Virus record (IMG/VR): IMGVR_UViG_2531839178_000023
Length of the DNA: 15,696 nt
Direction: 5' to 3' (one strand)
DNA from: a virus
Taxonomy: Duplodnaviria > Heunggongvirae > Uroviricota > Caudoviricetes
Part shown: positions 3,001-6,000 of the stretch, piece after piece
Position numbering within the stretch: position 1 is the first letter of the stretch
Layout: the number at the start of each line of letters is the position of its first letter
Position numbers: made by a program

Positions 3001-6000
3001 TAGTTGTTCCGCTGTCATTTACACGCAACTTTGGTAAAGAACCAGCATTGTTTGCAGGGTTAGACCATGCCACCGGAGATGCTGTAATTCCAATTGATGT
3101 TGACCTGCAAGATCCGATTGAGGTTATTCCTCATCTTATTGAAAAGTGGCAGGCAGGTGCTGATATGGTACTGGCTAAGCGCTCTGACCGTTCTACAGAT
3201 GGAAGACTGAAGCGCAAGACTACTGAGTGGTTCTATAAACTTCACAACAAAATAAGCAATCCGCAGATTGAAGAGAACGTTGGCGACTTCCGACTTATGT
3301 CTCGTGAAGTGGTAGAGAATATTAAGCTGTTGCCAGAACGTAATCTTTTCATGAGGGGCGTGCTAAGTTGGGTTGGCGGGAGAACTGATGTGGTCGAGTA
3401 CGCTCGCGCAGAGCGCGTGGCAGGCAAAACTAAATTCAATGGCTGGAAGCTTTGGAATCTGGCATTAGAAGGCATCACAAGTTTCTCAACTTTCCCTCTA
3501 CGGGTATGGACATACATAGGTCTTGGCGTGTCTATATTTGCATTTATTTATGCGGCGTGGATGGTTGTAGATAAATTGATCTGGGGAAATCCTGTGCCTG
3601 GATACCCATCAATTATGACAGCAATCCTTTTCCTTGGAGGTGTTCAGCTAATTGGAATAGGCGTACTCGGTGAATATATTGGTAGAATTTATGTTGAGGT
3701 TAAGAATAGACCAAAATACATCCTAAAGAAGGGACCTAAATGATGCGATTTATTAACATAACAACTATACTTTCTTTATTAATAATGTACGTATTGACAT
3801 CTGTAATATCATTGCATACCCCTATGCATTCAGATGACTACACGTATGCAATTACTGGCATTGGAATCGAGTCACATTTTAAGCACTATTTTACATGGAG
3901 TGGACGCATAGTAGCAGATTATGTGAGTGGTCTGTTACTGAGTATTAATCACACCTACCGCTCACTGATTAACGCCGCGGCACTTCCAATATTGTCTTTG
4001 TTGATCGCTAAAATTTCCTCTTATTTATTCGAGCAAAAGAGATACCAAACAGCCTTGATTGGTATTTTTGTTTACTTAACATACTGGCTATCAAATACCA
4101 ATCTTGGGCAAACAACATTTTGGGTTGTTGGCTCGGCCAATTATATCTGGACTAATATTTTCATCTGCCTTTTCTTTATGCTTATATGCAGGAAGGTTTA
4201 CGCTGAGGACAAAAAAACAATACAATAATTATCTGTATTGTAGGTGTTTTTGCAGGATGTTCTAATGAAAATACGGGATTTGTAGCGGTACTTTTTCCTC
4301 TATACCTTGCATTATGTAATTATATAAATAATAAACGTATAACAAAGGAACTTATTTTTTATACCATATCTTCTGGCATAGGTTATTTATTGCTAGTAGG
4401 CTCTCCTGGGAACAAAGAAAGAGCAAAATATTTCACTTACTGGTACGACACGCCATTCATTGAAAGGCTGAAGGAGCATCTTTATCATAGAGTTCCCGAT
4501 ATGATTTCTCAATTATGGATATCGTTATTAATTATTACCATTCTACTGGTTATTTACGCTTTTAATAAAAGACCCGAGAATAAATGTATTAGCATTGTGC
4601 ATGCTGTATTTTTTATGGTTTGCGCCCTCATCAGTGTAATTATTATGGTAGCGTCGCCAACCTATCCGCCACGTGCTGGCAATGGAACATTAGTATTCTT
4701 GCTGATTGCTATATCATTATTACTGAATGCCATTACCCAAACAAAAAATGGAAAGATACTGTCAGTAAGTTTACTGATAGTCCTCACTTTGTATTTTGTA
4801 CCTTCATATATGGATATGAAAAAGACATACGCAATGGCATCGATGCAGGATGAGGTAAGGCAGAAAATAATTCAGGAAAACTTAAAAAAAGGTGCTAAAG
4901 AATTTGCCATTCCTGACTTTTACTTTGGGAAAATGCTCACCCCAAGCCAGAAATTTGATACATTCCATTCAGATGTAGGCTATGGTAAGTTTTATGGTGT
5001 ACATAAAATTTATAAGGCTAAATCAAACTTTGATTACTCCATAGTTAATTTTGCTAAATACTATAATATTCAAAAACAACTCATACCTGCTAAAGTTTAT
5101 CTTATCGGGCTCTATATGGATCCCACAACAGGTTCCATAATATTGAAAACTGATCGTTCTATTACTGCTTACAATTATATTCACGGACCTAAAATATCTA
5201 TTGATGTATATTATAAAAATAAAACATCACCAATTAAGTATGAGTACTGGCCTGAGTCAACCATATTATCATACTATAGCTGGACAAGTTTTTCCGTTAC
5301 TCCAGGGGAGATAGAAAGAGTTGTTATAAGCCCAAGAGATGAAAAAAAGAATTAACCCACATTTCATTATTATTGTAACTTTATTTAGTATAATGGGTGC
5401 GTTCTATCGCGCCCTTGTTTAAATCAAACACCGGAGTAACTAATAGCTATGAAAAGATTAGAACTCACTGACTATGCAAGATTTTTTGCAGCAATGATGG
5501 TGGTATTGTTTCATTACACTTTCAATGGGATAGCAAATGGTAAAATTAGCTCCATACCAATGGACAATGACATAGCAAATATTACTAAATATGGTTATTT
5601 GGGGGTTGAGTTGTTCTTCATGATAAGTGGCTATGTAATATTTTACTCAGCAAAAATGAGAACTGCATCCCAATTTGCATTTTCCAGAGTATTACGTTTA
5701 TTCCCATCTTATTGGTTTGCGGTAATATTCACATCAGTGTTTATTTATTTTTTAGGGAATGAAAAGATAACAACAGACATAAAGACAACATTAATTAACC
5801 TAACAATGCTGCAATCATTTTTAGGGGCTAAGGATGTTGATGGTGTGTATTGGACGCTAATATTTGAGCTTAAGTTTTATTTTATCATATTCGTATTTCT
5901 TCTTCTCGGACTTCAAAGTAAACTTGATCTATTAATAAAAACATGGGCGTTAATGATATTTATTATTAACATTAGTAACCTTGGAAACTACCCTTTACTT

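What the first reader, a model, noticed from the sequence alone, without database searches (positions are those of the whole stretch)
4207..4228. gtrS-like gene interrupted at an A7 homopolymer
The two frames of the gtrS-like gene overlap only across 4207-4225, which contains AAAAAAA at 4211-4217. One extra A would fuse them into a single polytopic ORF of about 538 aa. This could be a fixed inactivating mutation, a slippage-prone on/off switch for the serotype-specific transferase, or a homopolymer sequencing error.
Basis: seen in the sequence. Interest (0 to 1): 0.4.

Follow-up and report, generated by a model that had tools for sequence, protein, structure and literature searches.

The report
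Frameshifted O-antigen glucosyltransferase pseudogene in Shigella

Summary
Two reading frames of one DUF6056/GT_STM0557_N "gtrC" gene overlap only at 4207-4225, and A7 lies at 4211-4217.

The A7 run is not the lesion. Seventeen related loci carrying the intact gene read A7-C-AAA-T, whereas the window reads A7-C-AA-T. The lost base therefore belongs to the AAA run (window 4219-4220), and A7 is the wild-type length.

Restoring one A at each site gives a gene 1641/1641 identical to that of S. dysenteriae 1012, encoding the common 546-aa protein.

The operon is dead regardless. An IS630-family element splits gtrB, and the P22-like prophage carries further IS insertions.

The A7-C-AA allele occurs only in this strain (S. 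boydii 965-58) and in one read-set assembly that is probably the same strain. A pyrosequencing undercall therefore cannot be excluded.

Other isolates carry an A8 allele of the same tract, also a knockout, or an IS1 insertion. Loss of this gene is thus recurrent.

I found no sign of a programmed switch. Homopolymers are not enriched, the tract is not conserved in homologues, and A7 is short.

This is an ordinary finding of low interest.

The parts
1..1158 (+). Prophage integrase intS (385 aa), left end of the P22-like prophage
   Evidence: ORF. It is 100% identical over 1-1833 to S. dysenteriae 1012 locus L013, where the gene carries Phage_integrase Pfam domains. E. coli hits annotate it as intS.
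1292..1654 (+). gtrA (120 aa)
   Evidence: Pfam PF04138 GtrA_DPMS_TM, E = 1.3e-13.
1654..1833 (+). gtrB, 5' part, cut off by the IS insertion
   Evidence: ORF 1654-1848. Relatives have an uninterrupted 306-aa GT2 gene whose sequence runs straight from window 1833 to 3001.
1834..3000 (-). IS630-family insertion sequence inside gtrB, flanked by a duplicated TA (1832-1833 and 3001-3002). Its transposase is broken by a nonsense codon at 2150-2152.
   Evidence: Junction sequences. HTH and DDE_3 Pfam domains on ORFs 2150-2899 and 1805-2122. Three SNPs and no indel against an intact 343-aa copy in L013, one of them creating TAG. The insertion occurs only in the window among 22 loci. The Logan contig L002 starts inside the IS end.
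3001..3743 (+). gtrB, 3' part
   Evidence: Pfam PF00535 Glycos_transf_2, profile positions 72-167. Collinear with the intact gtrB of L001 and L013.
3740..4228 (+). gtrC-type gene (DUF6056/GT_STM0557_N), 5' fragment, 162 aa, ending ...AEDKKTIQ*
   Evidence: PF19528, profile 5-159. The exact product is found in only one other record, Logan SRR059778.
4211..4217 (+). A7 tract, wild-type length here. It is polymorphic (A8) in other isolates.
   Evidence: A7 in 17 loci with the intact gene. A8 in L003, L004, L005 and L018, giving a 175-aa truncation.
4219..4220 (+). Actual frameshift lesion: AA where all intact alleles have AAA (a 1-nt deletion)
   Evidence: Pairwise alignments. Allele table. Repairing this site and the second one restores 1641/1641 identity to L013 gtrC.
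4207..5355 (+). gtrC-type gene, 3' fragment in the other frame (382 codons open; the first start codon is TTG at 4390)
   Evidence: PF19528, profile 170-438. The 321-aa product equals EIQ28168.1 of Shigella boydii 965-58.
5342..5348 (+). Second frameshift lesion: A7 where every other locus has A8. It moves the stop from the ancestral 5376-5378 to 5353-5355.
5449..6522 (+). Acyltransferase_3 gene (357 aa), intact here. Its A5 run at 6057-6061 is A4, and so frameshifted, in L001 and L003.
   Evidence: Pfam PF01757. Tract table. Gene calls of 206 + 143 aa in L001 and L003.
6557..8841 (-). P22-type tailspike, split into 673 + 84 aa by a (TA)5 repeat at 6853-6862 ((TA)7 in intact 762-aa copies)
   Evidence: Head_binding Pfam domain. 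Alignment with L006. Repeat counts.

Best explanation
The locus is a single gtrC-type gene. It is the third, specificity-determining gene of a prophage gtrA-gtrB-gtrC (+ acyltransferase) O-antigen modification cassette in Shigella boydii 965-58, and it has become a pseudogene.

Shown:
- The ancestral sequence at the site is GAC AAA AAA ACA AAT ACA (D K K T N T).
- The window has lost one A from the AAA of CAAAT (window 4219-4220), two bases 3' of an A7 run that itself keeps its wild-type length.
- Translation therefore stops at 4226-4228 after 162 codons, of which the last two (I, Q) are out of frame.
- A second single-A loss (A8 to A7, 5342-5348) alters the C-terminus.
- gtrB upstream is split by an IS630-family element, and the surrounding P22-like prophage is riddled with IS elements.
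- There is no other difference from the intact gene of S. dysenteriae 1012 over 1641 nt.

Inferred:
- These are recent, real, strain-private slippage deletions.
- They accumulated under relaxed selection, or selection for loss, in a cassette that no longer works. By analogy with the Gtr model, that cassette would transfer glucose from undecaprenyl-phosphate-glucose to the O-antigen in the periplasm.
- A-runs are simply the most mutable sites in this 34% GC gene. That also explains the independent A7 to A8 knockout and the A5 to A4 knockout of the neighbouring acyltransferase in sister isolates.
- This is mutational decay, not a regulated switch.
For: Single gene: both fragments hit PF19528 at consecutive profile positions. 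Forty-six homologues are single proteins. The exact intact 546-aa protein is indexed in 143 blocks of assemblies, always within gtrA, gtrB (306 aa), gtrC (546 aa), acyltransferase (357 aa).

Position of the lesion. Repair of the two As gives 1641/1641 DNA identity to L013 and exactly protein P0048.

Dead operon: IS630-family insertion with TA duplication in gtrB. Tailspike split, gp16 cut by an IS3-family element, and further IS30- and IS3-family elements.

Reality of the allele:
- An independent k-mer assembly of raw reads (Logan SRR059778, L002) reproduces A7-C-AA and the IS junction at 100% identity over 1383 nt.
- 14 of 15 runs of at least 6 nt in the roughly 9.9 kb comparable with close relatives are concordant.
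- A 3-nt run is not a classic pyrosequencing error site (own knowledge).

Recurrent loss elsewhere:
- A8 allele in at least 8 samples.
- IS1 end joined to gtrC nt 436 in L017.
- Contig breaks at nt ~560 in several S. boydii and S. dysenteriae assemblies.
- Rare gtrC pseudogenes are already described in Salmonella (PMC3688519).
Against: - The A7-C-AA allele and the 3' A7 allele are seen only in this strain's data. Other S. boydii assemblies are intact at both sites (P0058, P0059, P0051, P0054, P0056).
- Both differences are losses of one A in or next to long A runs. One of them is in the longest homopolymer of the region (A8). That is the signature of a pyrosequencing undercall.
- SRR059778 is an early accession. 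Its Logan contig is short and ends in a T6 run (window 4355-4360). The GenBank contig spans four IS copies. All of this fits a 454 paired-end project (platform inferred, not verified).
- L002 is therefore probably not independent of the deposited assembly.
- Two frameshifts with zero substitutions in 1641 nt is somewhat unusual for real decay.
Confidence: 0.55

Rival explanations
1. Sequencing artefact. The strain's real gene is intact (A7-C-AAA and A8), and one A was under-called at each site in homopolymer-error-prone reads, probably 454 pyrosequencing. The gene would then be structurally whole, though still downstream of the IS-disrupted gtrB.
For: - The allele is private to one strain's data.
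- Both differences are single-A losses, one in the longest homopolymer of the compared region.
- The gene is otherwise 100% identical to an intact one.
- Against the closest relative L003 the window shows 0 SNPs and 4 homopolymer indels.
- Logan contig L002 is short and ends in a T6 run.
- The early SRR accession and an IS-spanning 219,828-bp contig fit a 454 paired-end assembly (inference).
Against: - A k-mer re-assembly of the reads gives the same allele with no break at the site.
- The first lesion is in a 3-nt run, where pyrosequencing consensus errors are rare (own knowledge).
- The other runs of at least 7 nt in the compared region (A7 at 4211, A7 at 4884, A7 at 6502, C7 at 6703) agree with the references.
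- Real homopolymer indels demonstrably occur in this same cassette in several other read sets, which gave long clean contigs and are probably Illumina (A7/A8, A5/A4).
Confidence: 0.35
2. Slipped-strand phase variation. The A7 tract is a contingency repeat that toggles the serotype-specific transferase on (A7) and off (A8 or A6) at high frequency.
For: - The tract length does differ between very closely related isolates. L001 has A7 and L003, L004, L005 and L018 have A8, with 1 SNP in 7.7 kb.
- O-antigen and LOS modification genes are classic targets of such switches in other genera (own knowledge).
- Salmonella gtr operons are phase variable, though by a different mechanism (PMC3688519).
Against: - In the window the tract is at the ON length and the gene is off for another reason.
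- 17 of 22 loci have A7, and the exact intact protein is in 143 index blocks.
- All A8 contigs are otherwise identical to one another wherever they overlap. L003, the only one that reaches the acyltransferase tract, carries A4 there. This is compatible with one inherited event.
- Homopolymers are not enriched over synonymous-codon shuffles (P = 0.38).
- The Lys-Lys codons are not conserved in the 73-77% identical homologues P0004 and P0005.
- Seven A's is short for a contingency tract (own knowledge).
- Irreversible knockouts by IS1 and IS630 coexist.
- Davies et al. note no evidence of phase variation for S. flexneri gtr.
Confidence: 0.05
3. Recoding rescue. The genomic deletion is compensated at expression level, because the A7 tract lies inside the 19-nt frame overlap. 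Either insertion of one extra A by RNA polymerase slippage, or a -1 ribosomal slip on C-AAA-AAA, would produce a near-wild-type protein (KKNNT instead of KKTNT).
For: - The geometry is right. No stop codon lies between the A7 and the lesion in either frame, and the shift needed is -1, or +1 nt in the mRNA.
- The changed residue lies in a short charged loop between hydrophobic segments.
- Such rescue of frameshifted genes is documented for apoB (A8), for E. coli genes with 9A runs, and for C. rodentium tssM (PMC1088944; PMC4256274).
Against: - Efficient slippage needs about 9, sometimes 8, A or T in most bacteria (PMC1088944). Here there are 7.
- The split organisation is not conserved in any homologue.
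- The second frameshift would still truncate the product.
- The IS630-family insertion separates gtrC from the operon's promoter region upstream of gtrA and destroys gtrB.
Confidence: 0.03
4. Two genuinely separate genes, as the RefSeq annotation implies with WP_284521269.1 (147 aa) and WP_284521270.1 (372 aa).
For: RefSeq lists both halves as DUF6056 family proteins. One E. coli prophage (SC418, L023) has two adjacent CDS at this cassette position.
Against: - The two halves cover consecutive parts of one Pfam domain.
- Every homologue is a single protein.
- The split allele is private to one strain.
- In SC418 the 413-aa DUF6056 protein aligns from residue 49 of the intact protein and so contains the whole N-terminal region. 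The 150-aa upstream protein is unrelated (E = 0.34). It is therefore not an equivalent split.
Confidence: 0.01

Closest known systems
Salmonella GtrC of the STM0557-STM0559 operon (gtr STM_I, GtrC family III; adds glucose alpha-1,4 to galactose of the O-antigen)
   Same: Same Pfam family, PF19528, which is named GT_STM0557_N in the newer release. Same three-gene operon logic of gtrA, gtrB, then a polytopic specificity gene on prophage-derived DNA (PMC3688519; PMC7685785).
   Different: No direct sequence comparison to STM0557 was made here. Acceptor sugar and linkage are unknown for the Shigella protein. Salmonella operons are switched by Dam/OxyR at the promoter, not by a coding repeat. An acyltransferase_3 gene follows here.
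gtrC pseudogenes with premature stops in S. [quoted passage not shown]
   Same: A specificity gene of a gtr operon inactivated by point lesions while the rest of the cassette persists. Those authors interpret it as recent selection or decay (PMC3688519).
   Different: Different genus and alleles. Here gtrB is additionally destroyed by an IS, and the lesion may still be a sequencing artefact.
Shigella flexneri serotype-converting phage cassettes (int, gtrA, gtrB, gtr[type]; phages SfII, SfV, SfX)
   Same: Same position next to the phage integrase and opposite the tailspike, with conserved gtrA and gtrB and a variable third gene (PMC7685785).
   Different: The third gene here belongs to PF19528. 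The Pfam scan found no other glycosyltransferase family. That the S. flexneri Gtr[type] proteins fall in a different Pfam family is from memory and was not tested.
Homopolymer contingency loci of LPS/LOS genes (Neisseria lgt poly-G, Helicobacter fut poly-C, Campylobacter poly-G)
   Same: A coding mononucleotide run in a surface-glycan gene whose length differs between isolates (A7 or A8) and decides whether the frame is open.
   Different: The tract is short, not enriched, not conserved, and overwhelmingly at one length. No within-strain heterogeneity is shown. In the window the tract is not the cause. The comparison systems are cited from own knowledge.
Frameshifted genes rescued by transcriptional slippage (Shigella mxiE, C. 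rodentium tssM, E. coli 9A genes)
   Same: An A-run lies within the overlap of two frames of a split gene (PMC1088944; PMC4256274).
   Different: The run is 7 nt, not at least 8-9. The split is not conserved. A second downstream frameshift and an upstream IS are present.

Membership tests
Pfam PF19528 (DUF6056 / GT_STM0557_N) | Match to the family HMM above the gathering score | tested here: met
   The N fragment scores 97.6 bits and the C fragment 152.3 bits against a cut-off of 27. They cover consecutive profile positions 5-159 and 170-438 of 442. All 46 homologues carry PF19528.
Gtr three-gene O-antigen glucosylation cassette | gtrA (GtrA_DPMS_TM) and gtrB (GT2) immediately upstream in the same orientation | tested here: met
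   PF04138 on 1292-1654. PF00535 on the 3' part of gtrB. gtrB is interrupted by an IS630-family element in the window but is an intact 306 aa in relatives.
Gtr three-gene O-antigen glucosylation cassette | Third gene encodes a polytopic inner-membrane protein and sits on prophage DNA next to integrase and tailspike | tested here: met
   Hydropathy shows hydrophobic stretches (KD19 >= 1.6, several overlapping) up to about residue 358, followed by a soluble tail. intS at 1-1158. P22-type tailspike with a Head_binding domain at 6820-8841.
Gtr three-gene O-antigen glucosylation cassette | Transfers glucose from Und-P-glucose to a defined O-unit sugar | not testable with these tools
   No biochemical data. 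No paper on this protein was found; a DUF6056 search gave one unrelated paper. No solved relative exists. There is only a weak sub-threshold resemblance to ArnT, E = 6.6e-5 and 21.7 bits against a cut-off of 567.
Slipped-strand (homopolymer) phase-variable contingency gene | Tract length differs among closely related isolates and determines the reading frame | tested here: met
   A7 (open frame) in 17 loci. A8 (175-aa truncation) in L003, L004, L005 and L018, in an almost identical background.
Slipped-strand (homopolymer) phase-variable contingency gene | The OFF state in this sequence is caused by the tract's length | tested here: not met
   The window tract is A7, the length of all intact alleles. 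The deletion is in the adjacent AAA run.
Slipped-strand (homopolymer) phase-variable contingency gene | The repeat is maintained or over-represented beyond what composition and coding explain | tested here: not met
   3 runs of at least 7 nt against 2.2 expected from synonymous-codon shuffles, P = 0.38. The Lys-Lys codons are replaced in the 73-77% identical homologues P0004 and P0005.
Slipped-strand (homopolymer) phase-variable contingency gene | High-frequency reversible switching within a clonal population | not testable with these tools
   This needs read-level or experimental data. Only consensus contigs are available.
Dam/OxyR-controlled gtr phase variation (Salmonella type) | Paired GATC sites within OxyR half-sites upstream of gtrA | not tested
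   Two GATC sites are visible in the intS-gtrA spacer, at 1157-1160 and 1234-1237. No OxyR-site analysis was done.
Programmed recoding (ribosomal frameshift or transcriptional slippage) gene | Split-ORF organisation and slippery run conserved among homologues | tested here: not met
   All homologues are single ORFs. The split is private to one strain.
Programmed recoding (ribosomal frameshift or transcriptional slippage) gene | Run long enough for efficient slippage (about 9, sometimes 8, A or T) | tested here: not met
   The run is 7 nt. The length threshold is from PMC1088944.

The most novel reading that the evidence does not exclude
The A7/A8 polymorphism seen among near-identical isolates could reflect a genuine slipped-strand ON/OFF site for O-antigen modification in the S. 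boydii/S. dysenteriae lineage. In strain 965-58 the A7 tract lies inside the 19-nt frame overlap. It could therefore let RNA-polymerase or ribosome slippage, or a true genomic A8 under-called as A7, compensate the neighbouring 1-nt deletion and yield some near-wild-type GtrC (T161N).
Probability: 0.04. Interest if true: 0.45.

Novelty: already known. Interest (0 to 1): 0.12.

Why it matters
The main value is annotation hygiene. RefSeq carries the two halves as separate DUF6056 proteins, when they should be one frameshifted pseudogene or, if the reads disagree, one intact gene.

There is also a modest biological point. Genome-based Shigella serotype and O-antigen prediction that scores the presence of gtr genes would over-call modification here. 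Within one cassette lineage, the modification genes have been knocked out at least five separate ways: IS630 in gtrB, IS1 in gtrC, A7 to A8, AAA to AA, and A5 to A4 in the acyltransferase. That pattern suggests this O-antigen decoration is dispensable or counter-selected in these Shigella clones. None of this is surprising for Shigella, which is known for IS expansion and pseudogene accumulation.

Tried and rejected
- Megablast and blastn of the gene against 5,426 complete E. coli genomes and 50,697 phage records found no near match. There were only 8 distant DUF6056 hits in E. coli, so tract comparison had to come from the protein-cluster and contig index.
- An exact-pattern scan of GTDB species representatives, allowing variable tract lengths, gave 0 hits.
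- A look-up of the exact 321-aa downstream ORF in the contig index found nothing on record. I therefore could not see whether the SRR059778 assembly also carries the 3' A7 allele.
- Literature on strain 965-58 and its sequencing platform yielded nothing usable. The 454 attribution remains an inference.
- A PDB sequence search found no relative. NCBIfam gave only a sub-threshold ArnT hit.
- I checked whether P0065 and P0049 (proteins starting MRF...) represented an independent background for the A8 allele. They are only alternative start-codon calls on the same sequence, so there is no evidence of recurrence.
- I examined the two-CDS arrangement in E. coli SC418 as a possible natural split and rejected it. 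The DUF6056 CDS there is complete at its N-terminus, and the small upstream protein is unrelated.
- I checked whether the IS630 transposase split was another homopolymer indel, which would have pointed to pervasive sequencing error. It is a nonsense SNP.
- Structure prediction and the large profile search were not run. They would not bear on the frameshift question.
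Full report
**What is in the sequence.** Reading 4100-4340 shows GCTGAGGAC-AAAAAAA-C-AA-TACAATAA.
- A7 occupies 4211-4217.
- TGA at 4204-4206 closes the downstream frame.
- TAA at 4226-4228 ends the upstream ORF, 3740-4228, 162 aa.
- The other frame is open from 4207 to 5355.

One extra A in the tract gives a 538-aa fusion.

**Gene context**:

| Window coordinates | Feature |
|---|---|
| 1-1158 | intS |
| 1292-1654 | gtrA |
| 1654-1833 and 3001-3743 | gtrB, split by an IS630-family element (1834-3000, TA duplication) |
| 3740-5355 | the split gene |
| 5449-6522 | acyltransferase_3 gene |
| 6557-8841, minus strand | P22-type tailspike |
| from about 9977-10007 | a gp16 remnant cut by an IS3-family element |
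| 10956-12107 | IS30-family transposase |
| 12528-13341 | P22 ssb and abc2 |
| 13571-14844 | another IS3-family element |

This is the decayed left arm of a P22-like serotype-converting prophage.

**It is one gene.** The two fragments match Pfam PF19528 (DUF6056, renamed GT_STM0557_N) at profile positions 5-159 and 170-438 of 442, scoring 97.6 and 152.3 bits against a cut-off of 27. A search with the fused protein found 46 homologues. All are single proteins of about 530-600 aa apart from a few shorter or partial entries. The top hit is 99% identical and 546 aa long.

The exact 321-aa downstream ORF is GenBank EIQ28168.1 of Shigella boydii 965-58, on a 219,828-bp contig. That identifies the source of the window. 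RefSeq lists both halves as separate DUF6056 proteins.

Hydropathy indicates a polytopic N-terminal region of about 360 aa and a soluble C-terminal region of about 185 aa. The frameshift site falls in a short charged loop, AEDKKTNT.

**Where the lesion really is.** Contig L001 carries the intact gene. Against it, the window shows only four differences in 7 kb:
1. L001 has A7-C-AAA-T where the window has A7-C-AA-T.
2. One SNP at 4246.
3. L001 has A8 where the window has A7, at 5342-5348.
4. The window has A5 where L001 has A4, in the acyltransferase.

I then fetched 20 more loci. The allele table reads:

| Allele at the site | Loci |
|---|---|
| A7-C-AAA | 17 loci, including S. dysenteriae 1012 (AAMJ02, L013) and the complete genome CP026824.1 (L019) |
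| A8-C-AAA | L003, L004, L005, L018 |
| A7-C-AA | the window and L002 only |

Of those 17 loci, the 16 that reach the 3' end of the gene all carry A8 in the 3' tract; L016 ends before it.

So the A7 tract has its wild-type length in the window. The missing base belongs to the following AAA. The ancestral codons are GAC AAA AAA ACA AAT ACA, encoding D K K T N T.

Re-inserting one A at each site gives a gene identical at all 1641 positions to L013. It encodes exactly the common 546-aa protein P0048. That protein is indexed in 143 blocks of public assemblies.

**Is the allele real?** I could not decide this with the tools available.

For a real mutation:
- A k-mer assembly of raw reads (Logan SRR059778, L002) reproduces A7-C-AA and the IS630 junction at 100% identity over 1383 nt.
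- The first lesion is in a 3-nt run.
- All other runs of at least 7 nt in the roughly 9.9 kb comparable with close relatives agree.
- The IS630 transposase is broken by a nonsense SNP, not an indel.
- Homopolymer indels occur in this same cassette in other read sets that gave long clean contigs.

For an artefact:
- The allele is private to this strain's data. Other S. boydii assemblies are intact at both sites.
- Both changes are single-A losses, one of them in the longest homopolymer of the region.
- There is no substitution at all in the gene.
- L002 is short and ends in a T6 run.
- The early accession number and an IS-spanning contig fit a 454 paired-end project. I could not verify the platform.

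I put a real mutation at about 0.55 and an artefact at about 0.35.

**Switch or decay?** The tract does vary. The A8 allele truncates the protein at 175 aa (...DKKNKYNNYLYCRCFCRMF*). It is present in at least 8 samples whose contigs differ from the A7 contig L001 by one SNP.

Everything else argues for ordinary mutational decay:
- A7 is by far the commonest state.
- The A8 contigs are identical to each other wherever they overlap, and L003, the only one reaching the acyltransferase tract, carries the A4 acyltransferase knockout. This fits one inherited event.
- Homopolymer content is what the amino-acid and codon composition predicts: 3 runs of at least 7 nt against 2.2 expected, P = 0.38.
- The Lys-Lys codons are not kept in the 73-77% identical homologues.
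- Irreversible knockouts occur in parallel. An IS1 end is joined to gtrC nt 436 in L017. Contigs break at nt ~560 in several assemblies. IS630 sits in gtrB in the window.

The known phase variation of gtr operons is epigenetic, by Dam/OxyR at the promoter. Davies et al. note no evidence for it in S. flexneri. They also already describe rare gtrC pseudogenes, and that GtrA and GtrB can be supplied in trans (PMC3688519).

**Recoding.** The A7 lies inside the 19-nt overlap. A +1 A transcript, or a -1 ribosomal slip, would therefore give KKNNT in place of KKTNT. Efficient slippage, however, needs about 9, sometimes 8, A or T (PMC1088944). In addition, the split is not conserved, a second frameshift follows, and the IS insertion separates the gene from the operon's promoter region upstream of gtrA. 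I rate this at about 0.03.

**A possible natural split, rejected.** E. coli SC418 has two CDS at this cassette position. Its 413-aa DUF6056 protein aligns from residue 49 of the intact protein, and the 150-aa upstream protein is unrelated. It is not an equivalent split.

**Function, inferred.** By the Gtr model (PMC7685785; PMC3688519):
- GtrB makes undecaprenyl-phosphate-glucose.
- GtrA flips it across the membrane.
- The polytopic third protein transfers the glucose to a specific O-unit sugar in the periplasm.
- The following acyltransferase_3 gene probably adds an O-acetyl group.

The acceptor for this Shigella protein is unknown. No paper or solved structure was found.

**Verdict.** The feature is an ordinary, already-known kind of thing, namely a pseudogene or a homopolymer sequencing slip in a defunct prophage cassette of an IS-laden Shigella genome. 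Interest is 0.12.

Noticed in passing
window 5342-5348 (stop at 5353-5355; ancestral stop at 5376-5378): A second single-A deletion in the same gene. A8 in all 18 other loci that cover the site is A7 here, replacing the last nine codons (ELTHISLLL*) with N*.
   Followed up: yes
window 1834-3000, with TA at 1832-1833 and 3001-3002: An IS630-family element of about 1.17 kb is inserted in gtrB with a TA target duplication. It is seen only in this strain among 22 loci. Its own transposase is broken by a nonsense codon (TAG on the minus strand, 2150-2152) relative to an intact 343-aa copy.
   Followed up: yes
window 6853-6862; also L006, L013 and L019: A (TA)n dinucleotide repeat near the 3' end of the tailspike gene is polymorphic. 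(TA)7 occurs in intact 762-aa tailspikes. (TA)5 occurs in the window, L001, L003 and L019, where the gene is split 673 + 84 aa. (TA)4 occurs in S. dysenteriae 1012.
   Followed up: partly
window 6057-6061; L001 3779-3793; L003: The acyltransferase_3 gene has an A5 run that is A4 in L001 and L003, splitting it into 206 + 143 aa. Sister isolates have thus lost the acyltransferase while this strain keeps it intact.
   Followed up: partly
L003, L004, L005, L018 (position 1942-1949 in each): An A8 allele of the tract under study truncates GtrC at 175 aa. It occurs in at least 8 read sets (ERR6005799 plus 2 others, SRR8186692, SRR5330509 plus 1, SRR8186674 plus 1). All have a near-identical background with intact gtrB.
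   Followed up: yes
L017 1917-1945; L016 end (gtrC nt ~560): Other independent disruptions of the same gene. An IS1 terminal repeat (GGTAATGACTCCAACTTATTGATAGTGTT) is joined to gtrC nt 436 in SRR5017536. Several S. boydii and S. dysenteriae assemblies have contigs that end at gtrC nt ~560 on both sides, probably at another IS.
   Followed up: partly
window ~9977-15696: The prophage interior is largely replaced by mobile elements. gp16 is cut at about 9977-10007 by an IS3-family element (9986-10825). An IS30-family transposase lies at 10956-12107 and another IS3-family element at 13571-14844. Only P22 ssb (12528-13034) and abc2 (13048-13341) lie between them.
   Followed up: partly
L006-L015, L019-L022: The same gtrA-gtrB-gtrC-acyltransferase module, with identical GtrC, sits in three different chromosomal neighbourhoods. 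These are next to intS/yfdC/mlaA, next to a PBP5-type carboxypeptidase gene, and next to bioA/ybhB-like genes. The cassette therefore travels on different P22-like prophages.
   Followed up: no
window 1157-1160 and 1234-1237: There are two GATC sites in the short intS-gtrA spacer. Salmonella gtr operons use Dam-methylated GATC pairs with OxyR for phase variation. I did not analyse whether OxyR half-sites are present here.
   Followed up: no
L023 4076-5756 (E. coli SC418): A distant DUF6056 cassette has a shorter 413-aa transferase lacking the C-terminal soluble region. It is preceded by an unrelated 150-aa protein overlapping it by 14 nt. This may be an alternative two-protein architecture for the family.
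   Followed up: partly
L019 (S. dysenteriae CP026824.1) 9709-10781 and 15239-17531: In this complete genome the acyltransferase is called as 57 + 300 aa, and neighbouring dsdX- and dsdA-like genes are also split. This is either extensive real pseudogenisation or long-read indel errors.
   Followed up: no
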